The position numbers and the translations under genes were made by a program. 64,000 nucleotides of DNA, taken from the IMG/VR virus record IMGVR_UViG_3300037993_001242, positions 135,099 through 199,098 of that record; one strand, given 5' to 3'. Under the pieces are notes generated by a model, which saw only the letters and a list, made by a program, of their open reading frames with translations, made no database searches and was not told the origin of the DNA. Shown one piece after another: positions 3,811 to 34,254 of the stretch. This DNA comes from a virus. How positions within the stretch are numbered: position 1 is the first letter of the stretch; each line of letters starts with the position of its first letter.

Positions 3811-4203
3811 ATGAAAGATACATAGGTTTCAAACGGTTCCTGTCTCCGGCTCTACGCGCTCGTGCGCACGGATGCAGGCATGTCTCCCGGCAAGACAGCT
3901 TCACAGGCCGGTCACGCTTACCTCGGAGCGTTCATCGAGGCTTCCCGCAAAACTCCTGACGCCGTTGCTGTCTACAGCAGCGAGCATCCCACGCCCGGCA
4001 CCAAGGTCTGTCTCAAAGGCAACCTGAACACCCTCCGGCGCGCTCAGGAAGAAGCCCAGAAGGCGGGTATTCCCCACTGCTTGATCATTGACTCAGGCTG
4101 CAAAAATTTCTTCAATGGTGAGCCGACCGTCACGGCGCTCGGATTTGGCCCGGCCACTGAAGAACAACTCACACCGTTTTTAAGGAGACTTCAAGTTTTA
4201 TGA
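3811..4203 (+). CDS. pth2: Peptidyl-tRNA hydrolase, PTH2 family, with in-frame TAG at 3823-3825
   Basis: LYALVRTDAGMSPGKTASQAGHAY, TKVCLK, IIDSG and TVTALGFGP motifs; ATG 3811 is in frame and no ATG/GTG/TTG lies between the TAG and GTG 3862. Confidence 0.8.
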
Positions 4204-4210
4204 ACAATTT

Positions 4211-4356
4211 GAGCAAGTGGCAGAATGGGACAATGCAGACCACGGAGAAAACTACGGCTAACAACCGAGACGGCGAAAGTATACGCGTGAAATCGCTGGA
4301 ACAACGTGAAATCCTAACCGTGCGACTTGGTGGTTCGACTCCACCCTTGCTCACCA
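4211..4356 (+). tRNA. tRNA-like RNA 1 with about 65 extra nt in the anticodon arm
   Basis: Acceptor GAGCAAG/CTTGCTC plus A-CCA; D arm GCA-GAATGGGACAA-TGC; T arm GGTGG-TTCGACT-CCACC; helix CACGG/CCGTG encloses 72 nt. Confidence 0.8.
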
Positions 4357-4362
4357 ATTTAC

Positions 4363-4501
4363 GGGGTGCATTACACACAGAGGAAACTGGCCCTTGGGGT
4401 AAAAGCGCAGACCAGAGAGAACGTGTGGGAAGTAGCATTATGGCAATGCCGCAGTACGCAAGTGCTGTGCTAAGTGGGTTCGATCCCCACCCACCCCGCC
4501 A
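4363..4501 (+). tRNA. tRNA-like RNA 2 with a 63-nt insert in the acceptor strand and a GCAA tetraloop instead of an anticodon loop
   Basis: GGGGTG[insert 4369-4431]G pairs with CCACCCC, then G-CCA; D arm GCATT/AATGC; T arm GTGGG-TTCGATC-CCCAC. Confidence 0.7.
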
Positions 4502-4508
4502 ATTTAAT

Positions 4509-4588
4509 GCGGAGGTAGCTCAGTTGGCAGAGCGCGTGGAGCCTTCACAGGTTTCACGAGGTCGGACGTTCGATCCGTTCCCTCCGCG
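4509..4588 (+). tRNA. tRNA-like RNA 3 with an extended 9-10 bp anticodon stem; loop contains TCA
   Basis: Acceptor GCGGAGG/CCTCCGC; D arm GCTC-AGTTGGCA-GAGC; variable loop AGGTC; T arm GGACG-TTCGATC-CGTTC; no encoded CCA. Confidence 0.8.
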
Positions 4589-4601
4589 ACACTTACAAAC
4601 A

Positions 4602-5093
4602 TCACAACAGTCCGAGACTTTTATTTGTGACAGCCATCTTACCAAATATGCGCACAGATTCCTCGTCAAAGACAGCCGCAGCTTCCTGCGGCGTTGCATG
4701 GTATCCAAAATTTTTACGGCCATTGTTGATATAGATCACAGCGCGCCAAGGCCGTTTGCGATTTCCACGAGGATCAAGTTCAACACCTTTGAAGAAACTC
4801 TTACTGCTGCGCACAACCAGACATTGTCGCCTACTCTTGAGATTGCAGCGCATGTGACTAAAACCAACGTTGTTGAGATCGAAAAACAGTTCGATGGCGT
4901 TTGGTTCGTGCAGCCACGGTTTAACATGATCAATCGTAAAATCATTCACGGAAGCAATCAATTTTCCACAGCGTATACATGTAGCCATACCGGCTTTTAC
5001 TGCCAGCATATAAAGCAACATTTTCCGCAAACGATTACTGGCCGTACCAACTGACATGCCCAACTGCCTTGATTTTTCAGCATTTTTATCCAT
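4602..5093 (-). CDS. HNH endonuclease with C-terminal AP2 DNA-binding domain
   Basis: CIRCG...IDHVKP...SHMRCN HNH core; FKGVE...PWRAVIY...FGYHATPQEAAAVFDE AP2 pattern. Confidence 0.85.
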   Translation of the reverse strand: MDKNAEKSRQLGMSVGTASNRLRKMLLYMLAVKAGMATCIRCGKLIASVNDFTIDHVKPWLHEPNAIELFFDLNNVGFSHMRCNLKSRRQCLVVRSSKSFFKGVELDPRGNRKRPWRAVIYINNGRKNFGYHATPQEAAAVFDEESVRIFGKMAVTNKSLGLL

Positions 5094-5117
5094 ATAACAA
5101 AGAACAAAACAAAACCT

Positions 5118-5438
5118 ATGAAATTCACATCCAAAGACGAATACTTACGCTGGCGTTCCGAGTGGAAAGCCAATTACCAAACCCTCAGCCAGCAAATCCG
5201 AGACGTTAAATTCGCCCGGTGGTTCGAGGATTCACGGCGCGGCGGTGTCAAGATGAACGCGGCGCAGACCCAGCGCTACGAGGCCATCGCCAAAGCGCAC
5301 AAGACCCAGTGGGGCTTCTTCCCCAACCATGCGCTCAAACAGCTTCGGGACAAGGCCACAGCCCTGCTCGCCGAGCGCGTTGCCTCGAAGATCGCGGCGC
5401 AAGAGTGCTATCAGGCTCGCCAACTGCACCCGGCCTGA
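5118..5438 (+). CDS. Hypothetical protein (106 aa)
   Basis: ATG after an A-rich leader; fills the gap between flanking genes. Confidence 0.7.
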   Translation: MKFTSKDEYLRWRSEWKANYQTLSQQIRDVKFARWFEDSRRGGVKMNAAQTQRYEAIAKAHKTQWGFFPNHALKQLRDKATALLAERVASKIAAQECYQARQLHPA

Positions 5439-6692
5439 TCAGACGTGCAGAAACGTACGGCTGCCCGGCGGCTTGACCGCGTCATGGGCAGCCGTGTTGT
5501 ATTCAAGTGCGTGACGCGGTAACTCAAATTCAAATCCGCGATTCACCGCCGCTTGATTATCAAACGACAGTTGCACCCAAGTCACAGGGCCGTTGGGTTT
5601 TAGACCAAACTGATTAAGCGCCTTATTGACCTTGATTTTGGCTCCCCGTGCTGTGGCGTAAACATGGCCGTATACACGCCATTTATTTTCGTGGCGACAG
5701 ACGCCGATAGCGCGCAACCCAACACTGTCCATAGCCCACATGAGCTTGTCGACTCTGGCCTTGGTCTCGAATGTGGTTTTAATAAATTGACGCGGATCAA
5801 CGGCGTCAGGGTCTAAAGTTTCAGTCACGCGTTTGTTTGTTTCCAGCCACAACGCCATGGCTACATCCATGGCTGTACTATATGTTTTACCTTTGAAAAT
5901 TTTTGTTGGAACGCCCGTAGCGTCAATAACCCGCCATTTACCAGACTTGTTCAGACCTATTTTACCAAGGCCATTATTCCAGAGTGCATGTTCATCGGTT
6001 AAGACCGCGTACCAGTCAGCATATTTAGCAAACCTGAAATCTGGCGTTGTTAGGGTGTACGCCTTGGGATCAACGGCATCTGGATCAAGTGCCTCTTTGA
6101 TGCTGAATTCAGCTATCAATTGATCAAGGCGCACTCCCAGCAATGCGCGCTCAACGTATTTGGAACTTGTAAGCTCCCATCTGCCATTCTCACTTGTGTA
6201 CACTTGCACAGTAAGTTCATCGAGCGGCTCCCCCGCACCGAAATGGCTGTGGTTGGGCCAGACAATCAACTGATAATTGCCTATGTTTTTAAAGTAGAAA
6301 CCCGGAGAATCTTGTCTCGATGCTTCCAGCGCAAATCCGCGTTCACCCAGCGTCTTCAGCCAGTTAAAGGTGCTGCGCGCATAATGACGAGGATCAACAT
6401 CGTCAGGATCAGCTTCACGCAGCGCCATCAGCTTGTGTATACGCTGGGCGGCTGCCTCAGCAAATTGAGCGTGCCGGACGCGAATGGTGGTGATGGCGTA
6501 GCCCTGCTTACGTGCCTCCTGCCGGGCCTGTATGGACGCCTTGCCCTTGTTTTCAGCGTGGCCCGTGGCCAGCGCGTGGGTTTCGTCGGGCAGCGGCAGC
6601 AGCGACCAATACCAGATGTGGCTCCCGTTTATTGGAGCGGGCCGGTATTCAAGGGCGGCATACCTGCGTTGAAACAAGGCGTTAGCGTTCAC
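5439..6692 (-). CDS. DPDE-linker multi-module protein (417 aa, three linkers)
   Basis: LREADPDDVDPR, IKEALDPDAVDPK, VTETLDPDAVDPR. Confidence 0.85.
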   Translation of the reverse strand: MNANALFQRRYAALEYRPAPINGSHIWYWSLLPLPDETHALATGHAENKGKASIQARQEARKQGYAITTIRVRHAQFAEAAAQRIHKLMALREADPDDVDPRHYARSTFNWLKTLGERGFALEASRQDSPGFYFKNIGNYQLIVWPNHSHFGAGEPLDELTVQVYTSENGRWELTSSKYVERALLGVRLDQLIAEFSIKEALDPDAVDPKAYTLTTPDFRFAKYADWYAVLTDEHALWNNGLGKIGLNKSGKWRVIDATGVPTKIFKGKTYSTAMDVAMALWLETNKRVTETLDPDAVDPRQFIKTTFETKARVDKLMWAMDSVGLRAIGVCRHENKWRVYGHVYATARGAKIKVNKALNQFGLKPNGPVTWVQLSFDNQAAVNRGFEFELPRHALEYNTAAHDAVKPPGSRTFLHV

Positions 6693-6695
6693 ACG

Positions 6696-6702
6696 CTAAC
6701 TA
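6696..6702 (-). promoter_or_regulatory. Candidate late promoter TAGTTAG
   Basis: 3 nt before GTG 6692; independent of the upstream stop at 6707. Confidence 0.5.
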
Positions 6703-6706
6703 CCGC

Positions 6707-6922
6707 CTACAATAAGGTGCCCGCTGATGGCAAAATACCATCAGCGGGCAGTGAAAACAGTCTCTCCAGCTTAATCGACGGACGGTAAGCAATCTTCCGT
6801 TTGTCCGCCATGAACCGCTTGATCTGGACGTGGACGTACTTCGCAAACCGAGCCGCCCAGTAGCGGATCGTTGCCTCGTACACGAACTCGGTTACGAAAA
6901 TACGTACAAACCAAACGAACAT
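6707..6922 (-). CDS. Hypothetical protein (71 aa), probably leaderless
   Basis: ATG 6 nt after a sigma70-like -10 element. Confidence 0.55.
   Translation of the reverse strand: MFVWFVRIFVTEFVYEATIRYWAARFAKYVHVQIKRFMADKRKIAYRPSIKLERLFSLPADGILPSAGTLL
6718..6750 (-). terminator. 13-bp perfect inverted repeat, probable terminator
   Basis: TGCCCGCTGATGG-CAAAATA-CCATCAGCGGGCA just upstream of the candidate late promoter; weak U-tract. Confidence 0.55.
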
Positions 6923-6928
6923 GCCTAA

Positions 6929-6956
6929 ACTGTATACCGCGCTTTAAATTCGTCAA
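6929..6956 (-). promoter_or_regulatory. Sigma70-like promoter TTGACG-N16-TACAGT
   Basis: -35/-10 pair with GTATAC overlapping the -10; ATG 6 nt downstream. Confidence 0.6.
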
Positions 6957-6964
6957 CATAAAAA

Positions 6965-7180
6965 TTAAACGTCATTTTTCAGCCTGATGTGCTTAGTTTC
7001 GATGTCGAGCACGAGCGCTTCGACACGTTGAGCCAATTGTTCGGGCGGGCATTTGAGTTTTTCGGCCAGATGTTGCACCAGCACACGGTTAGTGACCATG
7101 CGCTGGTATTGTTTCCTGAGCCTACGTTTCCACTTCAGCCGTCGTTTTCGGGTAGACCAGATTCTGAGGACAATTATCAT
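6965..7180 (-). CDS. Hypothetical protein (71 aa)
   Basis: ATGA overlap with the Toprim gene. Confidence 0.6.
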   Translation of the reverse strand: MIIVLRIWSTRKRRLKWKRRLRKQYQRMVTNRVLVQHLAEKLKCPPEQLAQRVEALVLDIETKHIRLKNDV

Positions 7181-8070
7181 TTCTTTTTCTGATTGTCCGC
7201 ACGCAAGGACGCAACCGCCGTCCGTAGGAGTTTCTTGTCCTCTTCCTCTTTGGCTTTAACATCGTCCATTTTGTCTTCGTCCAAAACGTGACTGAACGCC
7301 TCGCGGATCACCTGTCCAAGAACTTCCGGCGGCAAGGCGTCAACTTCCCACGACTCATTGCCGTGCCGACCAACGTACGCCAAAGCCCGGCTGTCGCTCA
7401 TTTTGGCCGGGTTGGGCGGCGGGTTATACTCCTCGATCTGCTCCATCGTCAGGGCCAGCTTTTGCACCATCACTTCCGACCCAAACATGTGCAACCGCTC
7501 ACGGATGTCGCGCACCATATCCTCACCGGAGGGGTCGTGATCACCGAGGTAAAACAAAATGGAAGTCTGGCCGTTATTTTCGTGGCGGATCATTCGCTGC
7601 GCCGCCTCGTACAGGGCGCTCTGACTGGAATAGCCCTTGTTGACCATCATCGTGACGTGAAACTCGTTGGCAAGGGGCAGCAGCACGCCGGAAAGGGCAT
7701 CCTTCTCGACCCAAAGCTCAACATAGTGCTGCTGGCCCGCCCACCGGGGCAGCCGAAATGAGTGGAAAGCGGCGTCCAGCAATTCATCCAAATCCTCGAA
7801 TTCCGGCGGGGATTTGGGCACCCGGACGCGATCCTCAATAGCGTCCCAGTCAATCAGCCCGGCCAGCCGGGCGTCACTGATCAGCTTGCCGAGGTTTTTG
7901 TAGGACTTTTCCTCGTTGGTGATCAGGTTGGCGATGACATGCTGGTAATAAAGCTGGCGCAACGTCAGCTTGAGACCTTGGGCCTGATACCGGACAATAA
8001 TTTCATTGGCGACGCGAACGCGTTCGCGTTTTTCGTCGCTCCAGCGGCTTTCTACGAATGCTTGTTTCAT
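7177..8070 (-). CDS. Topoisomerase VI subunit A-like Toprim protein
   Basis: LTLRQLYY winged-helix segment; ELWVEKDAL; YLGDHDPSG (DxD); WEVDAL. Confidence 0.8.
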   Translation of the reverse strand: MKQAFVESRWSDEKRERVRVANEIIVRYQAQGLKLTLRQLYYQHVIANLITNEEKSYKNLGKLISDARLAGLIDWDAIEDRVRVPKSPPEFEDLDELLDAAFHSFRLPRWAGQQHYVELWVEKDALSGVLLPLANEFHVTMMVNKGYSSQSALYEAAQRMIRHENNGQTSILFYLGDHDPSGEDMVRDIRERLHMFGSEVMVQKLALTMEQIEEYNPPPNPAKMSDSRALAYVGRHGNESWEVDALPPEVLGQVIREAFSHVLDEDKMDDVKAKEEEDKKLLRTAVASLRADNQKKK

Positions 8071-8117
8071 AATATCTCTATACCAATAATGGGGACAGCG
8101 TTAACCCCTAAAGGACA

Positions 8118-8486
8118 CTATTTTCTTCGCTTTTGAAGTTTACGAACGTGTTCAACCGGCGGGCGTTTGACCAGATAGCGCTTGTTGTGCGTTCGTGCTC
8201 CGCGTTCGCTGGTGTATAAATCCCAATAGGGGCGTAGCAGGTCTTGACCGCGCTTTAGTCCTTTTGGGACTCTGCCTATGATACATTTGGAAAAGCGCCA
8301 GCTTGAACGTCCAACGCAACCAACGCCCGGTTTATGGGTATCTTCCCTGCCGGTGTGCATTTTCATTGTTTGCCAGCGGACGAACTGAAATGAACCCACG
8401 TCAGCACCCGAAAACCGCATGTAAAGAGTTTGGCCCCGCTTGATGGGAGTTATCTTGATTTTATCAGACAATTTTTGCGCGTTCAT
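8118..8486 (-). CDS. Basic hypothetical protein (122 aa), probably leaderless
   Basis: ATG 6 nt after the -10 element. Confidence 0.7.
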   Translation of the reverse strand: MNAQKLSDKIKITPIKRGQTLYMRFSGADVGSFQFVRWQTMKMHTGREDTHKPGVGCVGRSSWRFSKCIIGRVPKGLKRGQDLLRPYWDLYTSERGARTHNKRYLVKRPPVEHVRKLQKRRK

Positions 8487-8492
8487 ACCAGT

Positions 8493-8521
8493 AATGTATA
8501 CGGGTATGACAATAATGTCAA
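8493..8521 (-). promoter_or_regulatory. Sigma70-like promoter TTGACA-N17-TACATT
   Basis: Consensus -35, 17-nt spacer, GTATACATT core. Confidence 0.7.
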
Positions 8522-8540
8522 TAGAAAAATTTAATCGCCT

Positions 8541-9470
8541 CTACTTGGGTTCATGTGGCTCGTTGCCACCCGCATGACCACAAACATCGCCCCCGGTATC
8601 ATCCACCAAAACGCCCTGTTCCTGCTTGACCCGCTTGTTGCAGTGAGCGCAACGGTGAGACCATGTTGCTCCGAATTTACCGCGCTCTATATCCTGCTGA
8701 GTCAATTCGACCCATATCTGCCTTAATTGATCCCAGTCCCCTTTTTCGGCAACCCCCGCGTAAATTAAAATGGCCTGATCCAGATCATAACCGGCCTTCG
8801 TCAACTCCGCTCGCGCCAGCGCTTCAGCATCTTCCTTGGAAACAGCTTGAACCGGATAGTCAAGCGCCGGTGGGCCATCTACTTCAATATCCCTACCCTC
8901 AACGTCTTTGGCTCCCTCGAATGATACGATCCAGTAGTGACCGGGCAGCTTTTTAAGCATAACCCGTGGGTCAACTTCGTCGGGATCGATGGCTTCCCTG
9001 ACTCGTTGCACGCGATCCCGGTGGTCTGCCCATTCCTGTTTGGCGCGCTTTTTCTCCACGCCGGTCATGTCGAACGGACTGGTCACCATGCTCCAACGCC
9101 CGCAGGCGCATTTCCACCCATCCCACGATGATACCAATCGGCAGGGCTTGTGGCCGTGCTTGAGGCTGAAGCGCTTGAAGTTGATGTCATCAGGATCGAG
9201 CGCTTCGTTACGATATTTGGGCTTTGAAACGATCCCGTATTTTCGTTCCAGTTCTTCTCGTGGTGTATGGTATATTTCTTCCTCTTCCACTTGTTGGGGC
9301 CAATCACTGAATGGACAGGTTAAATCAGCACAGTATCCTGATTGGTCAACGTCACTACCGCATTTTTTACAAAAACCCGGTATGTGAAGTACTTGCTGTT
9401 TGAAGTCAACGTCGTCAGGATCAGCTTCCAGCAGGCGGGAAACGATGAATTGTGCTCGCGGGGTGTTCAC
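8541..9470 (-). CDS. LLE-leader, DPDE-linker multi-module protein (309 aa)
   Basis: IVSRLLEADPDDVDFK, NEALDPDDINFK, VREAIDPDEVDPR; Cys-containing modules lie between linkers. Confidence 0.85.
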   Translation of the reverse strand: MNTPRAQFIVSRLLEADPDDVDFKQQVLHIPGFCKKCGSDVDQSGYCADLTCPFSDWPQQVEEEEIYHTPREELERKYGIVSKPKYRNEALDPDDINFKRFSLKHGHKPCRLVSSWDGWKCACGRWSMVTSPFDMTGVEKKRAKQEWADHRDRVQRVREAIDPDEVDPRVMLKKLPGHYWIVSFEGAKDVEGRDIEVDGPPALDYPVQAVSKEDAEALARAELTKAGYDLDQAILIYAGVAEKGDWDQLRQIWVELTQQDIERGKFGATWSHRCAHCNKRVKQEQGVLVDDTGGDVCGHAGGNEPHEPK

Positions 9471-9796: not shown

Positions 9797-9798
9797 GT

Positions 9799-10137: not shown

Positions 10138-10141
10138 TGCC

Positions 10142-10148
10142 TTAACTA
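10142..10148 (-). promoter_or_regulatory. Candidate late promoter TAGTTAA
   Basis: 4 nt before ATG 10137; not part of a stop codon. Confidence 0.5.
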
Positions 10149-10153
10149 CGACA

Positions 10154-24053: not shown

Positions 24054-24182
24054 TTGTTTCCTGACGGACTGTATACAAAGTCACCGTCAGGATTCAACTC
24101 ATATCTGTGGCCAGCCATGAAAACAATCACAGTGTTGCCCGCCAACGTCTGGTGCTTGTCCATTGGGCCGCGCCGGTGATCT

Positions 24183-26987: not shown

Positions 26988-26994
26988 TAATTAG
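26988..26994 (+). promoter_or_regulatory. Candidate late promoter TAATTAG
   Basis: 5 nt before ATG 27000 at the head of the plus-strand cassette. Confidence 0.4.
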
Positions 26995-26999
26995 TTTAG

Positions 27000-27227: not shown

Positions 27228-28924
27228 AAAATTGCGTTATAATTCTAACTCTGTTTGCGGCTACGATTCTGTTTGCTGCTAGTCCTTCTGTGCAGCAACT
27301 GACTACGCCTCCCGGAATTGATGGGTTAATAGCCACCGTGTCTGGAATTGAGACTGTCACAAACGCCAATCCTGTTTTTTACGTGTGTCCATGGACTAAT
27401 CTTACTGATAAGGTTACAAATTCAACTTTATGGTATGGGCCATGGCGTGGCAGCAACTATGTCCAACTGGCGGTGAACGCATTGCGATATTACCAGCAGA
27501 CTAATCGATTTCAGGTGGGCGGTGGACGCATTGAGGTTTTGGGAATCAACTACTCCCCAGACCCGATCATATTTACCAACACCGGGGCCGGAATTGAGTC
27601 GTTTGAACTATATGCGCCATCTTTCACTTATGGTGCCTTGGTCTGTCTGACCAACCCCTGCATTCAGATGATTAGTTCGGGTGATTCTTTTTACAGCCAG
27701 AACTTGACCATCCGAAACTTGATAATTTCGAGCCTTCAAAACCAGACCAACTTCCTGATTTTCATGGACGGCGGAGACAGGTTCCAATTTGAAGACGATT
27801 GGTTTGGTTATTGGGGGTTTATGACCAACAATCAAGTCAACGGGACTGTGATTGGCTTAGTCACCCCCACAACTGGAGAAGCGGTAGATAAAGCCAATCT
27901 TGTGATTCATATAACGGAATCAGCCGACAAAAGCATTTTCTCCCGCAATCACATGCTTGGGCTTGCAGCCGTCGAGTTTGATATAGACCATCTCGACTGT
28001 GAATATAATCAGGCTTCGTTTTGTGGAAATAATCTTGGCGGAAACGGCTATACCACCGTGTCAACCGACTGGGATTCAACGTCTCTTTACTCCATTGGCG
28101 CGGTTTTCATTGTGACTCCCAATGCTAACCAAGGTTACTATAATTTCAGGGGCAATTTTTTCTACAGATGCTTGGCTGGATACTATTCGCCGGGAGGCAG
28201 TCTCAGTCACTTTATTTCGTATGATGACGAGTTTGAGTCCACCGGATTTGAATGTTTGCTTGGTTCGGCAGGTCAATTTTACCTCGTAAACCCCCAAATA
28301 CATCAAGCCTTTCCAGACACGGCTATCGCTGGAACAATTTCCGGCCCTCCGTACACGGTCTCAGCCCCGTTCACCGCTTCGTATGTTGATCTGACTCAAT
28401 CGCCGATAGTTTGGTCAGTTGGCAGTTCATTCCCACTGATTAGTGTGGTTGGCACCGACTCCGCTGCCTTTTTCCAAGGTGATGGGTCGATGGTGACTAA
28501 CATTCCAGCGACCAGCGTTACTGGCCAATATCCTCCAATTAATGCTCCAACTAACGTAGCTGGAACCAATTTCAATAATACTATAGTGGCTACCAATTTT
28601 ATTGGCAATGGTAAGGGGTTGACAAATTTGACCGGTCTTTTATTTACCAACAGTCCAGCATCATTTTTAAAATCGGGAGGCCCTGTAACAGTTAATGCTG
28701 CCGGTTTCTTATCTGTTTCCGTTCTTGTAACCAACACTCAAATAACTTGGCTAACCAACACCGTTAGCCATGTATGCCTTCAATTGCAAAACCCTACAGG
28801 GACTTCCCAGACTGTAGACAAAGCTGCGATATTCTGCAACTCAAATGACACCGTGATCGTAACCAACATGTCTGGCAGTGGTGGTACTACCATTGTGGGA
28901 TGCTGGTACCAAGTGTTGCATTAA
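27224..28924 (+). CDS. Signal-peptide, beta-rich T/N/S-rich protein, possible polysaccharide-binding or depolymerase-like
   Basis: MKNCVIILTLFAATILFA/ASP Sec-type signal; repeated beta-strand/Asn pattern. Confidence 0.6.
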   Translation: MKNCVIILTLFAATILFAASPSVQQLTTPPGIDGLIATVSGIETVTNANPVFYVCPWTNLTDKVTNSTLWYGPWRGSNYVQLAVNALRYYQQTNRFQVGGGRIEVLGINYSPDPIIFTNTGAGIESFELYAPSFTYGALVCLTNPCIQMISSGDSFYSQNLTIRNLIISSLQNQTNFLIFMDGGDRFQFEDDWFGYWGFMTNNQVNGTVIGLVTPTTGEAVDKANLVIHITESADKSIFSRNHMLGLAAVEFDIDHLDCEYNQASFCGNNLGGNGYTTVSTDWDSTSLYSIGAVFIVTPNANQGYYNFRGNFFYRCLAGYYSPGGSLSHFISYDDEFESTGFECLLGSAGQFYLVNPQIHQAFPDTAIAGTISGPPYTVSAPFTASYVDLTQSPIVWSVGSSFPLISVVGTDSAAFFQGDGSMVTNIPATSVTGQYPPINAPTNVAGTNFNNTIVATNFIGNGKGLTNLTGLLFTNSPASFLKSGGPVTVNAAGFLSVSVLVTNTQITWLTNTVSHVCLQLQNPTGTSQTVDKAAIFCNSNDTVIVTNMSGSGGTTIVGCWYQVLH

Positions 28925-28928
28925 GACC

Positions 28929-30233
28929 ATGACCACACCGACAAGTTTAGAAACCGGAATGGATGTAACGCTCGTACTGGATGATCTGTCTGGTATTGCG
29001 CCGACAGCGTTCGTCACGTCGAGTAGTGTCGGCGTACCTGTAACGTATGTTCCGACAGAACCAGCGTCCTCTGTAAGCAGTACTTTCTTTGCTTTCCACA
29101 TGGCTTACGGTGGAGCGGCCATTTTTAATAAAAACACCAGTACTTGGACGACATATCCGGCGACTGTGGATGACGATGGTAGCTGCATTTATAACGGAAC
29201 CAGATACGGCGCTCCGACTGCCGGTTCCAGAGGAGCGGTGCTGAATCAGGCAGTTGATGCTTTTAATTTGCTTCCGAACGCCGATCTCTGGATCAGTCCC
29301 GGCACCTTCGATACCGGCGGCGCGCTGTGGGCCAATCCCAGAAACATCTATCTGGATTTAAGCAATGGCTCGACATCCTTGTCGGGAAACGCAGGAACCT
29401 CCAGCAATTCCGTTTACGGGGCTGGCAGCAACAGCACGCAGTTACTCTTTACTTGCGACGGTTCCACTTGGGGCACTTTTGCCGTGATTCGTTTGGGAGC
29501 AAACGGCTCGGTCATCGCCGGTTTGAAAATAACCGGCTACTATGACCGGCCCGATCAGTTCATTGAGGGACGGGAATTTCAATTGGGGGACACTGGCAGC
29601 GCCAACATGTTTTTGTACGATCTCTATCTTGATCCCGTCCCATGGATGCTGCCAGACACAACTGTCCTGAAAGATGGATACCAGACGGGTGCCGTAGTCT
29701 GGACGCACGCGGGTCTAAGCGATCACCCTATCTATACCATTGAATCGGGCCACGGCACGGTGGGAGCCTTGAGTGGGAACATAGTGAATTGTACTCTTTA
29801 CGGAAACTATGGAATTTTAGTGTTGGACGGCGGTTGCCCCCTTGGCCAAAGTGTAAATGTTTACAATTCGAGCCTGAATTTCAGGCATACCAGCATTGCG
29901 GGCGGTGGTGGGGCAATAACCGCCAACTACTTGGTTGGTGGTCTGCCCGGAAGGGTCAATTTCTACAACTGCATCATTGACGGCGGTGCGGTGGCCTTGA
30001 TCGCGGTTGACAATCAAAGTCCTTGCACTACAAGTCTCTATAACGGGACTACGATTCAAAACATGGCAGCAGGAGCGACTGCTTCGATCACCAATGCTTC
30101 GGGCACGCTCAATGTAGCGCCCTCCGTCGTTTATCCCAATTCCAGCGGGGTGTTGACTCCCGTGGCGGATGTGGTTCCGACCGTCCCAAGTTTGCCGGTG
30201 CTCTCTTATCCCACACCCGTTTTTACTACATGA
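28929..30233 (+). CDS. Beta-helix-like fibre/spike protein with N-terminal PVT motifs
   Basis: GMDVTLV and VPVTYVP at the N-terminus; LWISPGTFD and IVNCTL/FYNCII beta-helix-type segments. Confidence 0.55.
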   Translation: MTTPTSLETGMDVTLVLDDLSGIAPTAFVTSSSVGVPVTYVPTEPASSVSSTFFAFHMAYGGAAIFNKNTSTWTTYPATVDDDGSCIYNGTRYGAPTAGSRGAVLNQAVDAFNLLPNADLWISPGTFDTGGALWANPRNIYLDLSNGSTSLSGNAGTSSNSVYGAGSNSTQLLFTCDGSTWGTFAVIRLGANGSVIAGLKITGYYDRPDQFIEGREFQLGDTGSANMFLYDLYLDPVPWMLPDTTVLKDGYQTGAVVWTHAGLSDHPIYTIESGHGTVGALSGNIVNCTLYGNYGILVLDGGCPLGQSVNVYNSSLNFRHTSIAGGGGAITANYLVGGLPGRVNFYNCIIDGGAVALIAVDNQSPCTTSLYNGTTIQNMAAGATASITNASGTLNVAPSVVYPNSSGVLTPVADVVPTVPSLPVLSYPTPVFTT

Positions 30234-30312
30234 TTTATGAACAGGCCGGAGCGGCTGCAACTGTATACGCTGCAAACACGCATCCGGTACCTGTAATTAC
30301 ATGTAAAGCAGC

Positions 30313-30516
30313 ATGAGCACACCAACAACAAAAACAGCCGGTATGCCGGTGACTTTGGTACCCAATCCCGGTTCAGCCGACGACGCCAGCAGCGGAGCCG
30401 ATACCCACATCAACTATGCGGGGCCACCAACGGAAAATCCACCGGTAACGCTGGCATACATCGTCGTAGACACAAATGGCCAACAATGGCAGTACTACCA
30501 AGGAGGCTGGAACTGA
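30313..30516 (+). CDS. Small PVTLVP-motif protein (67 aa)
   Basis: GMPVTLVPNPGS; C-terminal VVDTNGQQWQYYQGGWN. Confidence 0.65.
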   Translation: MSTPTTKTAGMPVTLVPNPGSADDASSGADTHINYAGPPTENPPVTLAYIVVDTNGQQWQYYQGGWN

Positions 30517-30520
30517 TTTT

Positions 30521-32521
30521 ATGCGAAAAACTATCTTGTTGATTTTAGTATTAACGTTTGTAAACGTGGTTTTTGCAAACATTTATACAGGCACTCTAAA
30601 TGGAAACGTAAATGGGCCTTCCAGCTATGCAACAAATGCCGGTGTAGCAAATACTGTTTCTAGTACAAACTTCAACGACCAGTTGGCCCGAAGCAATACC
30701 AACGCTCCCAATCTTTCAGTTGGCTACTCCACCACGGCGACGAATGCGTGGGTGTTAAAAGGCGGGGGATATGTTGACACTAACCCGGCAGTTTATGGCA
30801 GTAGCGGAAAAAAGATTTACTTCAATTCTTATCCAAATTATCCCGGCTTCGATGCTCAGGCAAACATTTTCAACATTTATGGTGACACAACCGGGATTCA
30901 ATTTTTGGGCTATGACGGAAGTATCCAAGGTAATTTCAAGGGCGACAATTTTAAAATAAAATCCGGCGGGAATATCCCAATCGTTGTGGATAACCACCTT
31001 GATATGCGCCAGATGGAACCTGTGCCGATATTGCTTTACTCGGATTGGTTTGAAGTTGAAACCAACCATACCGAATCATGGACAACCAACAAAATATATT
31101 GGATGTACACCAACGGTCTTTATGCGGCTGGTTACAATTACTTTGAGATTGATGATGGTTGGATGGCAACGGCCAGAATTGGTGGCCATCTTGTGCCCGA
31201 CCCGGCTAAGTTCCCGCATGGCATAACCAACATCACCGCCTTTGCCCACTCTCTTGGTATAAAGGTCATCATCTATGATGTTGGAGGATTGACCACTTGC
31301 GCGGGTTTTCCCGGCTCGACAGCAAACTATGTGCAGCAGGATGTAGTTGATTTCATGCTCTGGGGGTTAGATGGAATTTTTGTGGATGGTTGTGTCGGCA
31401 GGCCGGAAGTATCGGGTAGTATGTTTTCGACCGCCATCCTCAATGCTGGCAATCAGGTTGGCCAATACGGGCTTGGAATTACTTTATCAAACAATCCTTC
31501 CATGCTGTTAATGGGGTCAGTAAATTACGTTGGTTATGGCACAAGCACTCTGGTCAAAGATGCGAGAAGCCAATCATTGAATTTCAATTCGTCGGTTCTT
31601 GGGGTGCCGTTTTTCGGTGACCAATATACTGTGGAAGCGGTTGCTACCAGCGGAAAAGTTCTTCTCGAAGATACATCTGAACGAGACATCGGGAATTATT
31701 TTTCTCTGCATGATTGCATTGGAGCCGTTCCCTGCGGAATAAGTCAGTTGGTTATGACTACGAATGCCCAGCAAGCATTTGTGACTATGAGCGCAATGAT
31801 GCCGGGCGATGTCTGGTTGACAGGAGTTACCAATCCCATCAACCTTTTCCCGTTCACAAACTTGGAAGTGAATGCAGCGATTAAAAATCCTTTGTGTTCG
31901 CCGGGAACGCTGATTTCGTCAAACACGCAAGCGATGGTGTTTACCCGCGCCCTTGGTTCTTATCCGGCTACAAATGTTCCGCCAACTATAGGAACGAGCA
32001 ATCTGGTTGCCTTCTTCAACTTCAGCAATGTCGCTCAGAATGTCGCGGTAACGTTGCCATCCGGCAACTATTACAACGTTCGCGATCTGTGGTTCCAGAC
32101 GAACTTCGTTGGCCCTGCGACCGGCACATTTTCCTTTTTGGTTCCATCTAACAATGCAAGCCTGTTTTTGCTTCAACAGGTGCCGAACACGCTCGTTGGC
32201 GGAATTCTTCTTTCCAATGACTTTGCGAATGGGGCATCCATTTATTTGCCCGGCGGCACAAACTCAGGATCACAAGCAATAAGGGTCGGAGGGTTTTTGG
32301 GGGCCTCTACAACGCCCGGAATTACATCTGACAACACGACCCTGATTCTGGTTGGAGGGGGTTTCGCCGGGACTCAATTTCAAAACAAAGCGCGCAACCT
32401 GATTACGGGACAAATTTACGACAATGGAACTTTTCAAATTGTCGGCCCTCTGATTGTCGGGGTGCAGGTGGTATATCCTCACTTAACCAACCATGTTTAT
32501 ACTTGGACTGATGCCCCATGA
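30521..32521 (+). CDS. GH27 (alpha-galactosidase family) glycoside hydrolase with signal peptide
   Basis: MRKTILLILVLTFVNVVFA signal; GYNYFEIDDGW, PDPAKFPHG, TCAGFPGS, WGLDGIFVDGC; C-terminal VAFFN...VRDLW beta-sandwich. Confidence 0.85.
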   Translation: MRKTILLILVLTFVNVVFANIYTGTLNGNVNGPSSYATNAGVANTVSSTNFNDQLARSNTNAPNLSVGYSTTATNAWVLKGGGYVDTNPAVYGSSGKKIYFNSYPNYPGFDAQANIFNIYGDTTGIQFLGYDGSIQGNFKGDNFKIKSGGNIPIVVDNHLDMRQMEPVPILLYSDWFEVETNHTESWTTNKIYWMYTNGLYAAGYNYFEIDDGWMATARIGGHLVPDPAKFPHGITNITAFAHSLGIKVIIYDVGGLTTCAGFPGSTANYVQQDVVDFMLWGLDGIFVDGCVGRPEVSGSMFSTAILNAGNQVGQYGLGITLSNNPSMLLMGSVNYVGYGTSTLVKDARSQSLNFNSSVLGVPFFGDQYTVEAVATSGKVLLEDTSERDIGNYFSLHDCIGAVPCGISQLVMTTNAQQAFVTMSAMMPGDVWLTGVTNPINLFPFTNLEVNAAIKNPLCSPGTLISSNTQAMVFTRALGSYPATNVPPTIGTSNLVAFFNFSNVAQNVAVTLPSGNYYNVRDLWFQTNFVGPATGTFSFLVPSNNASLFLLQQVPNTLVGGILLSNDFANGASIYLPGGTNSGSQAIRVGGFLGASTTPGITSDNTTLILVGGGFAGTQFQNKARNLITGQIYDNGTFQIVGPLIVGVQVVYPHLTNHVYTWTDAP

Positions 32522-32539
32522 CAACACGCGCAAAATCTT

Positions 32540-32695
32540 ATGAAAAATAACGCTATATTTGGATATGTGGGAGTTTTATTTTTTCTGATTGCTTCTATTT
32601 TACTTGGATCAGCGGACTGGAAAATAGCGGCTGGATTAAGTGCCTTGGGAATATCAGTAATTTGTTTCTGGCGATGTATTCGTAAAAATTCATGA
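32540..32695 (+). CDS. 51-aa two-TM membrane protein
   Basis: Translated by hand: MKNNAIFGYVGVLFFLIASILLGSADWKIAAGLSALGISVICFWRCIRKNS. Confidence 0.55.
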   Translation: MKNNAIFGYVGVLFFLIASILLGSADWKIAAGLSALGISVICFWRCIRKNS

Positions 32696-32766
32696 CCACC
32701 CCAAATGAAAATCTTTGCCGCTGGCTCTCTTGTGTGTCTTTGTGCGCGGGTTGAATCACAATCCGG

Positions 32767-33348
32767 TTAAGTCCAGTCCCAGCCACACAGAGGACAGATT
32801 TCCAAAAAAGTGTATACCGTCTCCGTAAAGAAAGCTCCTTCTTCCTGCGACCGCCGTCCATAACTGATCTGCTTGCAGCACGGACACTGACGCGTCTCCA
32901 CACGGCGCTTGTTCCGCCGGAGGACTCGCCAGTCGGTGATTAAGTTGCACGATCTGCGCCGTATCATATTGGCCATCCGCTGCTCGACGCTGTCCATAAT
33001 CCACCAAGCACCAGCTTCTTTGGCTCGGTCATAGTACGTCCGAAATTCTTCAAAAATAACGGCCCGTCTGTTTTCACCGTGGCGGTGAGAGACCAGCAAC
33101 AGCCACACGCAGCCAAATTGAACAATACTGACTGGAAGACGCATCCACGTCGTCCATGTGCTGACACCATAGACAAAATCAACGAGCATCAGGAGAAGTT
33201 GATCCGCACCCATGCTCCCGTTGAGCATGACGCCCCACTTGACGATTGGGTTGTCCAGCCAGTGCAATTCGCGATAACGTGGTATCGGCGGCAATGCGTG
33301 CAGCAGCGCGTGCTTAAAATCGCTGGCGCTTCCTTCTTCCGGGATCAT
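32767..33348 (-). CDS. PExG-tag family membrane protein (dispersed member)
   Basis: MIPEEGSASDFKHALL; two hydrophobic segments; C-terminal CPCC/CPLC. Confidence 0.75.
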   Translation of the reverse strand: MIPEEGSASDFKHALLHALPPIPRYRELHWLDNPIVKWGVMLNGSMGADQLLLMLVDFVYGVSTWTTWMRLPVSIVQFGCVWLLLVSHRHGENRRAVIFEEFRTYYDRAKEAGAWWIMDSVEQRMANMIRRRSCNLITDWRVLRRNKRRVETRQCPCCKQISYGRRSQEEGAFFTETVYTFLEICPLCGWDWT

Positions 33349-33563
33349 GGCTTGATGAAAGAACCGGTAGCCTGCTCGTCCCAGCCCATGTCCTCGTCGA
33401 TCTCCGCGCCATTCTTGCGGCTAAACTCCCACGGGCCGCAATAAATGCGGTCTTTGGTGACGCCGGTCACTTTCAACGTCATAACAGCACCGCCAACGCC
33501 GCCGATTAATCGTTCGACGCTGTCACCGACCTGAACTTTATCCAGTTTATTTTCAGCACTCAT
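33345..33563 (-). CDS. Small SH3-like hypothetical protein
   Basis: VQVGDSVERLIGG...LKVTGVTKDRI; ATGA overlap. Confidence 0.6.
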   Translation of the reverse strand: MSAENKLDKVQVGDSVERLIGGVGGAVMTLKVTGVTKDRIYCGPWEFSRKNGAEIDEDMGWDEQATGSFIKP

Positions 33564-33600
33564 TTTGTTTACATCCTTAATTTGTGTGGTAATTTACGGC

Positions 33601-34254
33601 ATGAACCTCGTCATTGAAATTCGGGCCGCCGAAGGCGGTGATGATGCCAAACAATTGGTCGTCGAGCAATCCAAGCTGTACTCTCGCCTCTGTTCCAAAG
33701 CCGGTCTCTGACTGGAAGCGGTCGAAATCCGTCCCGGCTTCGCCGCACTGCGCGTCACCGGCGCTACTGCCCAACAAGTCTTCCAAAACGAATCCGGCGG
33801 CCACCGCTGGATGCGAGATCGCACCGGCAAAGTCCACACCAGCACCGTCACCGTGGCTGTCTTGGAAGAACCGACCTCCGGCCAACTTACGCTCAACATG
33901 GCCGACGTAGACATCACCGCCTGCCGGGGTTCCGGTGCGGGCGGCCAGCATCGCAACAAAGTCAGCAGCGCCATCCAGATCAGGCACCGACCCACCGGCT
34001 TGTACGTCCGCTGCGAGACCGAGCGGTCGCAGCACCAAAACCGGGAAATTGCGCTGGCCGTCCTGCGCGCCCGGCTGTGGGAGGCCCGCCAGCACGAAAC
34101 CGTCCAGCAGGCCAATGGCATCCGCCGCGACCAAATCGGCAGCGGAATGCGCGGCGACAAACGCCGGACGGTAGCGTTGCATCGGGGTGAAGCGGTGGAT
34201 CATATCACAGGAAAGCGCTGGCGCATTGTGGATTATCTCAAAGGCAACTGGTAA
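33601..34254 (+). CDS. Class I peptide chain release factor homologue (GGQ) with in-frame TGA at 33709-33711
   Basis: IEIRAAEGGDDA, NESGGHRW, GKVHTSTVTVAVL, GSGAGGQHRNKVSSA, ERSQHQNRE, QIGSGMRGDKRRT all in one frame either side of the TGA. Confidence 0.9.

What the first reader, a model, noticed from the sequence alone, without database searches (positions are those of the whole stretch)
3811..34254. Possible stop-codon-gated translation rescue system: PTH2 (UAG), RF-like (UGA) and tRNA-like RNAs showing CUA and UCA
Seen: the only two genes where I found internal stops are the two peptidyl-tRNA hydrolysing enzymes, one per release-factor class (UAG is RF1-specific, UGA is RF2-specific). The RNA cluster next to PTH2 shows CUA and UCA at or near anticodon positions. 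Other genes use TAG and TGA as normal stops, so this is not genome-wide recoding. Inference: a sensor circuit that switches on rescue enzymes when host termination or tRNA pools are disturbed, for example by anti-phage defences, or when phage suppressor RNAs mature. The link between the parts is speculative.
Basis: inference. Interest (0 to 1): 0.75.

Follow-up and report, generated by a model that had tools for sequence, protein, structure and literature searches.

The report
Two stop-codon-gated phage translation genes
A roughly 240-kb phage with the normal genetic code keeps a UAG stop at codon 5 of its peptidyl-tRNA hydrolase gene, which its own UAG-reading tRNA can pass, and a UGA stop inside a shortened release-factor gene; both look like deliberately locked genes, not broken ones, and the odd tRNA-like RNAs next door are not the keys.

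Summary
Both in-frame stops are real and conserved. They belong to two separate recoding modules, not one circuit.

1. **Pth2 gate.** The Pth2 gene reads ATG-AAA-GAT-ACA-TAG, then an essential first beta-strand with no start codon before it. All 22 related phage Pth2 loci examined keep one or two early stops. Every suppressor tRNA found for such a locus matches its stop: CUA with TAG, UUA with TAA, UCA with TGA (cultured phage Atu_ph07). This phage's key is an ordinary tRNA-CUA 27 kb upstream, outside the window.

2. **Release-factor gate.** The release-factor gene encodes a short RF1-like protein: no domain 1, GGQ present, PxT loop deleted. Its UGA at codon 37 sits where 60 of 80 phage homologues carry a prfB-type +1 frameshift cassette (GGAGG-N3/4-CTT-stop-C). 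Here the cassette has become an in-frame UGA-C. The gene is under strong purifying selection (pN/pS 0.06), and no UGA-reading tRNA was found.

3. **tRNA-like RNAs.** The three RNAs behind Pth2 are tRNA mimics without a working anticodon loop. CUA and UCA at anticodon positions are not supported.

4. **Linkage.** The two modules occur independently across phages.

I found no publication describing either gate. This scan has reported both gates, and the mimics, on other DNA.

The parts
3774..3802 (+). Conserved TTGACA (3774-3779), 17-nt spacer, TTTATT (3797-3802), ending 8 nt before ATG 3811. Possible promoter giving a leaderless or nearly leaderless mRNA (inference).
   Evidence: Read from the sequence. 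TTGACA and TTTATT are conserved in L006, L007 and L009. The sigma-70 scan tool did not call this site because position 2 of the second hexamer is T.
3811..4203 (+). Pth2-family peptidyl-tRNA hydrolase gene: ATG 3811, four sense codons, the UAG gate, then 125 codons to TGA 4201-4203.
   Evidence: Pfam PF01981 6.9e-19. AlphaFold model pLDDT 89, with Foldseek TM 0.8-0.9 to Pth2 structures 2zv3, 1wn2 and 1xty. Homologue alignments.
3823..3825 (+). In-frame UAG (codon 5), followed by G. This is the gate codon.
   Evidence: Conserved in L006/L007/L008, L009 and L010/L011 (two TAGs in L010), and in 15 of 15 IMG/VR loci. The stop type matches the suppressor tRNA anticodon wherever one was found.
3847..3867 (+). 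Codons for beta-strand 1 (R-L-Y-A-L-V-R). They lie after the UAG and mostly before the first canonical start codon (GTG 3862).
   Evidence: Strand E8-14 in the model. Aligns to residues 2-8 of M. jannaschii Pth2. Window versus L006 differences in this stretch are mostly synonymous.
4211..4356 (+). tRNA mimic RNA1: 7-bp acceptor stem, D arm, T arm and encoded CCA, with about 70 extra nt in place of an anticodon loop.
   Evidence: Sequence and fold. ARAGORN calls it only in relaxed or intron mode, as Arg-CCU with a 65-nt insert. No Rfam family matches.
4363..4501 (+). tRNA mimic RNA2: acceptor stem, an inserted hairpin of about 55 nt, D arm, a 7-bp arm capped by a GCAA tetraloop, T arm and CCA.
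   Evidence: GCAA-capped mimics recur behind Pth2 in L006, L177 and L178.
4509..4591 (+). tRNA mimic RNA3: a full cloverleaf (Rfam tRNA 47.9 bits) whose anticodon arm is a sealed 9-10 bp hairpin. The 3' end reads ACA, not CCA.
   Evidence: The L009 orthologue has the same body but a UCGC loop, and its four 5'-strand changes all keep pairing.
4602..5093 (-). HNH homing-endonuclease gene inserted just after the RNA cluster. It is a neighbour, not part of the gate.
   Evidence: Pfam HNH 1.2e-5. Present in L009 and absent in L006.
33601..34254 (+). Short RF1-like factor gene (217 codons): domains 2-4 only, GGQ present, PxT loop deleted (4 residues), in-frame UGA at codon 37.
   Evidence: Pfam PCRF 6.5e-11 and RF-1 6.6e-28. 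NCBIfam prfA 167 bits against a cut-off of 400. Alignment to RF1 structures. Family alignment. pN/pS 0.063 against L003.
33706..33714 (+). CTC TGA CTG: an in-frame UGA-C at the position where relatives carry CTT-stop-C with an upstream GGAGG (+1 frameshift cassette).
   Evidence: The same nine bases occur in the 97%-identical L003. No significant downstream structure.

Best explanation
The finding holds two independent, conserved translational gates in a standard-code jumbo phage.

**Gate 1: Pth2.**
- The Pth2 mRNA starts at or near AUG 3811.
- After four codons the ribosome meets UAG-G. RF1 ends the tetrapeptide unless the phage's own amber suppressor tRNA-CUA (genome c111560-111633) inserts an amino acid.
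- Only readthrough produces a Pth2 that contains beta-strand 1.
- Pth2 output therefore follows suppressor-tRNA activity relative to RF1.
- My preferred purpose (inferred): to match peptidyl-tRNA recycling to the extra readthrough and drop-off load that an active suppressor creates. A timing or safety lock is nearly as likely.

**Gate 2: the short RF1-derived factor.**
- The protein has GGQ intact, no domain 1 and a deleted PxT loop. It is probably a codon-independent or rescue-type hydrolase.
- Full-length protein needs readthrough of UGA-C at codon 37.
- The site descends from a prfB-type +1 frameshift cassette. It has lost the SD-like element and the CUU slip codon, and the two frames are now fused.
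- Readthrough is most likely by near-cognate tRNA-Trp. The protein would then be made at a low level that rises when RF2 activity falls (inferred).

**The RNAs.** The three RNAs behind Pth2 are non-decoding tRNA mimics of unknown role.
For: **Pth2 gate.**
- The TAG is conserved in relatives with 95%, 85% and 68% protein identity. The codons between the TAG and the first start codon are under coding constraint.
- All 15 IMG/VR loci of this clade have one or two early stops and no start codon before beta-strand 1.
- A suppressor tRNA gene sits directly upstream of Pth2 in 12 loci. Its anticodon is CUA where the stops are TAG, and UUA in L181, where both stops are TAA.
- Cultured phage Phosso has TAG and tRNA-CUA. 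Cultured phage Atu_ph07 has TGA and its only suppressor tRNA reads UCA (PMC6102473).
- Every gate stop is followed by a purine. The genome's 33 TAG terminators are followed by T or C in 23 cases.
- Beta-strand 1 is one of the four strands in the pLDDT-89 model, which has the Pth2 fold.

**Release-factor gate.**
- 60 of 80 phage homologues have the cassette cGGAGGnnt-CTT-stop-C at the same codon, with the homologous sequence continuing in the +1 frame: 44 TGA, 13 TAG, 3 TAA.
- The same cassette occurs in Minicystis rosea and, read by hand, in a metagenome contig, L005.
- The window, L003 and L017 have an in-frame TGA and L016 an in-frame TAG at that codon, all with 0-frame continuation.
- Window versus L003: 41 synonymous and 8 non-synonymous differences. 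Upstream of the TGA the count is 7 and 0.
- G001 (L016, in-frame TAG) carries a tRNA-CUA.

**RNAs.**
Against: - Nothing here is experimental. Expression and charging of tRNA-CUA, the residue it inserts and any readthrough level are unknown.
- A strong suppressor should be costly, because 13% of the phage's own genes end in TAG.
- For the release-factor gene, no UCA tRNA, no Hirsh-type tRNA-Trp and no tRNA-Trp with a 4-bp anticodon stem was found. Readthrough may therefore be very low.
- G002 (L017, in-frame TGA) shows only a UUA tRNA, though that record is 39% complete.
- About 18% of this genome is missing.
- The promoter and leaderless-mRNA reading failed the sigma-70 scan.
- The purpose of either gate is inference only.
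Confidence: 0.62

Rival explanations
1. One reading: one integrated sensor circuit in which the three neighbouring tRNA-like RNAs are the UAG and UGA suppressors that switch on both rescue enzymes.
For: The RNAs lie directly behind Pth2 and have acceptor stems, T arms and, in two of the three, an encoded CCA. CUA and UCA trinucleotides do occur inside RNA1 and RNA3.
Against: - None of the three has a 7-nt anticodon loop on a 5-bp stem.
- RNA3's loop changes from UUCACA to UCGC in an otherwise identical orthologue.
- RNA2 ends in a GCAA tetraloop.
- Close relatives L006-L008 keep the TAG but have a single mimic.
- A canonical tRNA-CUA exists elsewhere in the genome, and it covaries with the stop type across phages.
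- The Pth2 and release-factor modules are distributed independently.
Confidence: 0.04
2. The Pth2 stop ends a regulatory mini-ORF (M-K-D-T) and is never read through. Pth2 is then made by reinitiation at a downstream or non-canonical codon, and the mini-ORF acts as a leader peptide or as a minigene that provokes drop-off.
For: - The leader is very short (3-8 codons) and conserved as M-x-x-T, like the lambda bar minigenes that interact with Pth (my own knowledge).
- GTG 3862 and ATG 3880 exist downstream, and gene callers use them.
Against: - Stop type and suppressor anticodon covary in three directions.
- Several loci carry two stops of the same type in series.
- Beta-strand 1 is conserved at the protein level, yet no ATG, GTG or TTG lies between the stop and it.
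- The codon after the stop varies (GTT, GAC, ATT, ACT, GCT), so it is not a fixed alternative start.
Confidence: 0.1
3. The release-factor UGA is decoded by a dedicated tRNA: an opal suppressor tRNA-UCA, or tRNA-Sec, encoded in the unsequenced 18% of the phage genome or by the host. In this case it is not a leaky stop.
For: - The Pth2 gate shows that this kind of phage uses suppressor keys.
- G001 pairs an in-frame TAG in its release-factor gene with a tRNA-CUA.
- One homologue has Cys at the aligned position.
Against: - No UCA tRNA was found in 199 kb.
- No significant hairpin follows the UGA, so there is no SECIS-like element.
- The aligned residue varies (T, S, C, D, E, V).
- G002, with the same in-frame TGA, shows only a UUA tRNA.
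Confidence: 0.15
4. One or both genes are decaying pseudogenes, or the stops are assembly errors.
For: - The release-factor gene has lost its frameshift cassette and its PxT loop.
- Gene callers truncate both genes.
Against: - The identical stops appear in independent assemblies from different samples: L003, and L006-L011.
- pN/pS is 0.063, with 7 synonymous and 0 non-synonymous changes upstream of the UGA.
- The Pth2 stop is conserved across cultured and uncultured phages.
Confidence: 0.04

Closest known systems
prfB (RF2) autoregulatory +1 programmed frameshift (SD-like element, CUU UGA C)
   Same: Most homologues of the window's short release factor carry the same cassette: GGAGG, a 3-4 nt spacer, CTT, a stop and C, with the protein continuing in the +1 frame. 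In both cases a stop codon inside a release-factor gene ties expression to termination efficiency.
   Different: - The protein is RF1-like, not RF2.
- The cassette sits in domain 2, at codon 35-37, not at codon 26 of domain 1.
- The stop can be TAG or TAA. TAG was never seen in 8,164 prfB genes, and no frameshift is known for prfA (PMC12421855).
- In this window the cassette is gone: CTC TGA C, no SD-like element, 0-frame continuation. The event needed is readthrough, not frameshifting.
Stop-codon-recoded phages with their own suppressor tRNAs (TAG to Gln or TGA to Trp; bioRxiv 10.1101/2021.08.26.457843)
   Same: A phage-encoded suppressor tRNA decodes in-frame stops in phage genes, and this is proposed to regulate when those genes are translated.
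   Different: Here the genome uses the standard code throughout: 33 of 259 ORFs end in TAG, and there is no excess of in-frame TAG. A single small gene carries the stop, always within the first few codons, and the tRNA gene is usually adjacent to it.
Archaeal and eukaryotic peptidyl-tRNA hydrolase 2 (PF01981; PDB 2zv3, 1wn2, 1xty, 1q7s)
   Same: Same fold (TM 0.8-0.9). The G-K motif, the Q-x-G-H-A motif and the aspartate of D-S-G are conserved.
   Different: This is a separate phage clade with its own motifs (for example DSGC-x-NFF). It scores below NCBIfam's equivalog cut-offs (61 bits against 126) and is gated by an early stop. Its activity and substrate are untested.
PrfH and ArfB, release-factor-derived ribosome rescue factors
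   Same: Like PrfH, the window protein lacks domain 1 and keeps GGQ. Like ArfB, it probably cannot read stop codons, because its PxT loop is deleted.
   Different: It scores best against RF1 (167 bits) and well below the PrfH cut-off (69 against 167). No rtcB neighbour was seen among the flanking ORFs I scanned, and it has no ArfB-type C-terminal tail.
Orphan suppressor tRNAs of standard-code jumbo phages (XacN1: PMC5852040; Atu_ph07: PMC6102473)
   Same: The situation is the same: a standard-code jumbo phage with a CUA or UCA tRNA and a peptidyl-tRNA hydrolase gene.
   Different: The XacN1 authors looked for targets only by extending ORFs past their 3' stops, and reported none. The Atu_ph07 authors named no specific target. 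Here the target is at the 5' end of the Pth2 gene. I confirmed this directly in Atu_ph07 and Phosso.
Canonical tRNA (Rfam RF00005) and the tRNA-like domain of tmRNA
   Same: The three RNAs have acceptor stems and T arms, and two have an encoded CCA. RNA3 scores 47.9 bits on the tRNA model.
   Different: None has a usable anticodon loop; the arms are sealed or expanded. None has the G3:U70 pair, a tag reading frame or tmRNA size. ARAGORN's tmRNA search is negative here, while the real tmRNA lies at genome c55346-55771.

Membership tests
Pth2 (PF01981) | Profile match above Pfam's gathering score | tested here: met
   68.6 bits against a cut-off of 23, covering profile positions 2-115.
Pth2 (PF01981) | Four-stranded alpha/beta Pth2 fold that includes N-terminal strand 1 | tested here: met
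   AlphaFold2 pLDDT 89 with strands at 8-14, 60-65, 84-89 and 101-110. Foldseek TM 0.8-0.9 to 2zv3, 1wn2 and 1xty. The fold is complete only if translation passes the UAG.
Pth2 (PF01981) | NCBIfam equivalog score for Pth2 (NF003314 or TIGR00283) | tested here: not met
   61 bits against 126, and 51 against 82. It is a divergent clade within the superfamily.
Pth2 (PF01981) | Hydrolysis of peptidyl-tRNA | not testable with these tools
   Only the conservation of the Lys and Asp columns could be checked.
Class-I release factor RF1 (prfA) | GGQ motif and RF-1 domain | tested here: met
   RF-1 domain 6.6e-28. GGQ is invariant in the alignment.
Class-I release factor RF1 (prfA) | N-terminal domain 1 | tested here: not met
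   The match starts at prfA profile position 105-113, and the protein has 217 residues.
Class-I release factor RF1 (prfA) | PxT stop-codon recognition tripeptide | tested here: not met
   A four-residue gap lies exactly at the V-P-x-T position relative to RF1 structures and to most family members, which keep P-P-T.
Class-I release factor RF1 (prfA) | NCBIfam equivalog cut-off | tested here: not met
   167 bits against 400.
PrfH (TIGR03072) | Equivalog score and linkage to rtcB | tested here: not met
   69 bits against 166.65. The flanking ORFs I scanned have no Pfam match. I did not search the whole genome for rtcB.
prfB-type +1 programmed frameshift cassette | SD-like element, CUU slip codon, stop and 3' C, with the protein continuing in the +1 frame | tested here: not met
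   The window has AAAGCCGGT-CTC-TGA-C and the homology continues in frame 0. The feature is met in 60 of 80 phage homologues and in Minicystis rosea.
Suppressor-tRNA-decoded stop (recoded-phage type) | A cognate suppressor tRNA encoded by the same genome | tested here: met
   For the Pth2 UAG: tRNA-CUA at genome c111560-111633, a normal cloverleaf with anticodon loop CU-CUA-AA. For the release-factor UGA: no UCA tRNA found, so not met.
Suppressor-tRNA-decoded stop (recoded-phage type) | Many genes with in-frame copies of the reassigned stop | tested here: not met
   Only the Pth2 gene qualifies.
Decoding tRNA (for RNA1-3) | A 5-bp anticodon stem with a 7-nt loop, U33 and a purine at 37, conserved among orthologues | tested here: not met
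Selenocysteine insertion at UGA | A SECIS hairpin just after the UGA, plus tRNA-Sec | tested here: not met
   Fold z-scores are -0.47 and +0.31. No tRNA-Sec in the record. The host is unknown.

The most novel reading that the evidence does not exclude
The suppressor tRNA, the stop-locked Pth2 and the anticodon-less tRNA mimics form one phage system. In it Pth2 does not simply recycle host peptidyl-tRNA. It acts on, or together with, the mimic RNAs, for example by deacylating charged mimics or by using them as decoys against host tRNA-targeting defences. The suppressor would report that the phage's own tRNA supply is working. The short PxT-less release factor would be a second, RF2-sensing rescue arm in the same programme.
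Probability: 0.15. Interest if true: 0.85.

Novelty: new variant of a known kind. Interest (0 to 1): 0.72.

Why it matters
**A target for orphan suppressor tRNAs.** Jumbo phages that use the standard code often carry suppressor tRNAs with no known target. The XacN1 authors looked for targets and found none (PMC5852040). A Pth2 gene locked by a matching early stop gives these tRNAs a concrete, testable client. It also defines a natural lock-and-key translational switch. Two cultured systems are available to test it: Atu_ph07 on Agrobacterium C58 and Phosso on Sinorhizobium.

**A wider reach for the prfB cassette.** The release-factor result shows that the prfB frameshift cassette, thought to be specific to RF2 and always UGA or UAA (PMC12421855), is widespread in a phage RF1-like family. 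There it also occurs with UAG, and it can decay into a plain readthrough site.

**Annotation.** Both features make gene callers truncate these genes systematically. Of the 120 best Pth2-clade cluster representatives, 80 lack strand 1.

Tried and rejected
- **Genome-wide recoding:** rejected on ORF statistics and a codon-model scan.
- **Opal-decoding tRNA:** no UCA tRNA was found. tRNA-Trp(CCA) has a normal 5-bp anticodon stem and G24.
- **SECIS or readthrough-stimulating hairpin after the UGA:** none significant.
- **+1 frame after CTC-TGA:** not homologous to release factors.
- **RNA1 as an intron-containing tRNA:** ARAGORN's intron mode gives Arg-CCU with a 65-nt insert. I rejected this for three reasons:
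  - The insert is too short for a group I intron.
  - The junction geometry is off.
  - No orthologue supports it.
- **Rfam:** no family matches RNA1 or RNA2. A YrlA match (E 0.35) merely bridges the T arm of RNA2 and the D arm of RNA3.
- **Sigma-70 promoter scan:** negative at both genes.
- **Searches that found nothing useful:**
  - Single-protein scans of viral contigs and a DNA search of the phage collection found no relatives.
  - The genome-contig scan returned only ordinary RF1 genes.
  - Relatives cannot be drawn for a virus record.


Full report
**What the window is.** The window is the last 64 kb of a 199,098-bp IMG/VR virus record that CheckV rates about 82% complete. The record is therefore from a phage of roughly 240 kb. 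ARAGORN finds about 40 canonical tRNAs and a tmRNA between 50 and 74 kb, and one tRNA with anticodon CUA at c111560-111633. All of these lie outside the window. The genome uses the standard code:
- Of 259 ORFs that win a codon-model test against the other five frames, 114 end in TGA, 112 in TAA and 33 in TAG.
- Stops flanked by coding signal on both sides are evenly spread over the three types and are mostly adjacent genes.

**The Pth2 gene.**
- From 3811 the sequence reads ATG AAA GAT ACA TAG GTT and continues open to TGA at 4201.
- The Pfam PTH2 match (6.9e-19) starts 8 codons after the TAG.
- Alignment to M. jannaschii Pth2 puts the natural N-terminus one residue before the R-L-Y-A-L-V-R strand.
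- An AlphaFold2 model built from 26 sequences (pLDDT 89) makes that stretch strand 1 of a four-stranded sheet. Foldseek returns only Pth2 structures at TM 0.8-0.9.
- No ATG, GTG or TTG lies between the TAG and this strand. The first, GTG 3862, is inside it.
- Translation from any canonical start would therefore remove a core strand.

**Conservation of the gate.**
- The closest relatives, found through their truncated gene calls, have 95%, 85% and 68% protein identity. All keep the arrangement: a leader of four or five sense codons ending in Thr (M-K-D-T, M-T-N-F-T, M-K-H-T), then TAG, then strand 1.
- L010 has two TAGs in series, both in the context ACG TAG GAC.
- Between the window and L006, differences in the stretch from the TAG to the internal Met are mostly synonymous.
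- A profile scan of IMG/VR gave 15 more loci. Every one has one or two in-frame stops 4-15 codons before strand 1.
- Among the 120 best cluster representatives of this clade, 80 called ORFs lack strand 1 and 36 have an ordinary ATG just before it. Gated and ungated forms coexist.

**The key.**
- In 12 of the loci a suppressor tRNA gene sits tens to a few hundred bases upstream of Pth2.
- Its anticodon is CUA wherever the stops are TAG. In L181 both stops are TAA and the tRNA reads UUA.
- L185 has a TGA stop, and no tRNA lies within the short fragment held.
- I then checked cultured phages:
  - Sinorhizobium phage Phosso reads ATG AAG TAT TAG GTT, and has a tRNA-CUA 4.6 kb upstream plus a second copy.
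  - Agrobacterium phage Atu_ph07 reads ATG ATT GGC GAA CAC TTT TGA ATT. The only suppressor among the 30 of its 31 tRNA matches I could scan has anticodon UCA, as its authors reported (PMC6102473).
- The stop type therefore follows the anticodon in all three directions.
- The base after every gate stop is a purine, mostly G. The genome's 33 ordinary TAG terminators are followed by T or C in 23 cases. From my own knowledge of the classical suppression-context studies, a 3' purine favours suppression.
- In this phage the tRNA-CUA is a normal cloverleaf with loop CU-CUA-AA, discriminator G and an encoded CCA. It shares its acceptor stem with the L010 suppressor. It lies 27 kb upstream of Pth2.

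**Reading of the Pth2 gate.**
- Shown:
  - The gate is conserved.
  - The stretch after it is under coding constraint.
  - No alternative start codon exists.
  - A cognate tRNA is present.
  - Stop and anticodon covary.
- Inferred: the tRNA is expressed and charged, it competes with RF1 at codon 5, and full-length Pth2 is made only then.
- I could not establish why Pth2 is the locked gene.
  - I favour coupling peptidyl-tRNA recycling to the readthrough load that the suppressor creates.
  - A timing or safety lock is nearly as plausible.
- The upstream TTGACA-17-TTTATT is conserved in L006 and L009 and ends 8 nt before the ATG, which suggests a leaderless mRNA. The consensus scan did not call it, so I treat it as a lead only.

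**The release-factor gene.**
- From ATG 33601 the frame runs 36 codons to TGA and then continues in the same frame to 34254.
- With the stop read through, the 217-residue product matches PCRF (6.5e-11) and RF-1 (6.6e-28) across the stop.
- It scores best on prfA (167 bits against a cut-off of 400), starting at profile position 105-113. It also scores below the PrfH cut-off.
- Against RF1 structures it has a four-residue gap exactly at the V-P-x-T segment. GGQ is intact.
- It is therefore a domain 2-4 factor that probably cannot read stop codons in the RF1 manner.

**Origin of the UGA.**
- Database homologues fall into two groups. One is uninterrupted. The other has called N-termini that do not align.
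- DNA for the second group shows why. Minicystis rosea and a metagenome contig read GGAG(G)-N3/4-CTT-TGA-C, with the protein continuing in the +1 frame.
- The 80 IMG/VR loci from contigs of up to 619 kb break down as follows:

| State at codon about 35-37 | Loci |
|---|---|
| Frameshift cassette with TGA | 44 |
| Frameshift cassette with TAG | 13 |
| Frameshift cassette with TAA | 3 |
| Uninterrupted | 12 |
| In-frame stop at the cassette codon, frame 0 continues (L016 TAG; L017 and L091 TGA) | 3 |
| In-frame TGA at another position (L078, L087) | 2 |
| Not classified by the script | 4 |
| +2 call I did not check (L005-type TAA) | 0 in this set |

- A recent survey of 12,753 genomes found this frameshift only in prfB, never with TAG, and not in prfA (PMC12421855).
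- The window, its 97% relative L003, and L017 also show the in-frame state at the cassette codon.
- In the window the SD-like element and CUU are gone (AAAGCCGGT-CTC-TGA-C). The closest uninterrupted homologue reads CTC ACC CTG at the same place.
- Window versus L003 shows 41 synonymous and 8 non-synonymous differences (pN/pS 0.063). The 36 codons before the UGA show 7 and 0. Both halves are translated and the stop is kept.
- How the UGA is passed is open:
  - No UCA tRNA was found.
  - tRNA-Trp is unremarkable.
  - No significant structure follows the stop.
  - The 3' C is the weak-termination context also used in prfB.
- G001, whose release-factor gene has an in-frame TAG, does carry a tRNA-CUA. 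G002, with an in-frame TGA, shows only tRNA-UUA in a 39%-complete record.
- I favour low-level near-cognate readthrough that rises when RF2 is limiting. A dedicated tRNA in the missing sequence is the main rival.

**The RNAs behind Pth2.** All three have 6-7 bp acceptor stems and canonical T arms. RNA1 and RNA2 also have an encoded CCA, while RNA3 ends in ACA.
- RNA3 scores 47.9 bits on the Rfam tRNA model, but its anticodon arm is a 9-10 bp sealed hairpin. The L009 orthologue has the same body, a different loop (UCGC), and four 5'-strand changes that all preserve pairing.
- RNA2 has an extra hairpin of about 55 nt and a 7-bp arm capped by GCAA.
- RNA1 has about 70 extra nucleotides.
- Related loci carry GCAA-capped cloverleaves, 55-nt mini forms and forms of 125-190 nt next to Pth2, either before or after it.
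- These are selected tRNA mimics that cannot decode. Their function is unknown.

**Are the parts one system?**
- None of 15 phage records with a gated Pth2 encodes an RF-1-domain protein. This includes records rated 100%, 98% and 89% complete.
- Of 33 records with the short release factor, 17 have a Pth2-family match. I examined the 11 strongest. Nine could be read, and all nine are a canonical type that starts at an ordinary ATG with no gate.
- The two gates are therefore independent modules that happen to coexist here.

**Relation to earlier work in this scan.**
- I reached the conclusions above before opening the scan's notes.
- Those notes describe the same three things on other DNA, many times: the suppressor-gated Pth2, the frameshift-gated short RF1-like factor, and the anticodon-less mimics.
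- Two notes on this same stretch read RNA1 as a CUA tRNA or as a replaced anticodon domain. My analysis contradicts the first and agrees with the second.
- What this window adds:
  - Both gates occur in one genome.
  - The suppressor has moved 27 kb away from Pth2.
  - The release-factor gate is in its decayed, in-frame UGA form and is combined with loss of the PxT loop.
- In the literature I could search, I found no description of either gate.

Noticed in passing
window 4602-5093 (-): An HNH endonuclease gene sits immediately after tRNA mimic RNA3. L009 has the same insertion, but the closer relatives L006-L008 do not. It looks like a homing-endonuclease insertion into the RNA cluster.
   Followed up: partly
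window 5118-5438 (+): A conserved 106-aa gene with no Pfam match follows the Pth2/RNA cluster in the window, L006 and L009. It begins M-K-F-T, which resembles the Pth2 leader M-K-D-T, but it has no stop.
   Followed up: partly
window 4589-4591: RNA3 ends in ACA where its L009 orthologue has an encoded CCA. The window copy would need 3' repair by the CCA-adding enzyme, or it may be decaying.
   Followed up: no
L012 3725-4327 (+); genome about 111.7-112.3 kb: The gene next to the tRNA-CUA, on the opposite strand, looks by eye like an HD-domain (SpoT/Mesh1-type) hydrolase. I did not test this with a profile search.
   Followed up: no
whole genome, e.g. window 43437 (-) and 15372 (-); genome 14785 (+), 68209 (-), 89731 (-), 111223 (-), 114089 (+): A motif recurs: GTTGACA, about 13-14 nt, then (T)GTATACA. 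It is often followed within 6-11 nt by ATG AAA. It may be a phage promoter class with very short leaders.
   Followed up: no
L066, L081, L078, L087: The release-factor homologues in these phage contigs carry in-frame TGAs at other positions, for example two in L066 and L081. This suggests phages recoded TGA to Trp, not a gate.
   Followed up: no
L278 6001-12578; also L251/L252 (G001) and L254 (G002): In several relatives the short release-factor gene heads or abuts a large tRNA array (34 tRNAs plus a tmRNA in L278). In this genome it lies about 95 kb from the array.
   Followed up: partly
genome 116474-117230 (+) and c119052-119172: ARAGORN's intron mode proposes a tRNA-Ala with a 666-nt insert and a tRNA-Thr with a 29-nt insert. 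The first could be a group I intron in a tRNA gene.
   Followed up: no
L182 1488-1973 and L187 1383-1841: In these relatives, arrays of 55-nt mini tRNA mimics (acceptor stem, small hairpin, T arm, CCA) and mimics of about 125-186 nt lie between the suppressor tRNA and Pth2. The mimics can therefore sit on either side of the gene.
   Followed up: partly
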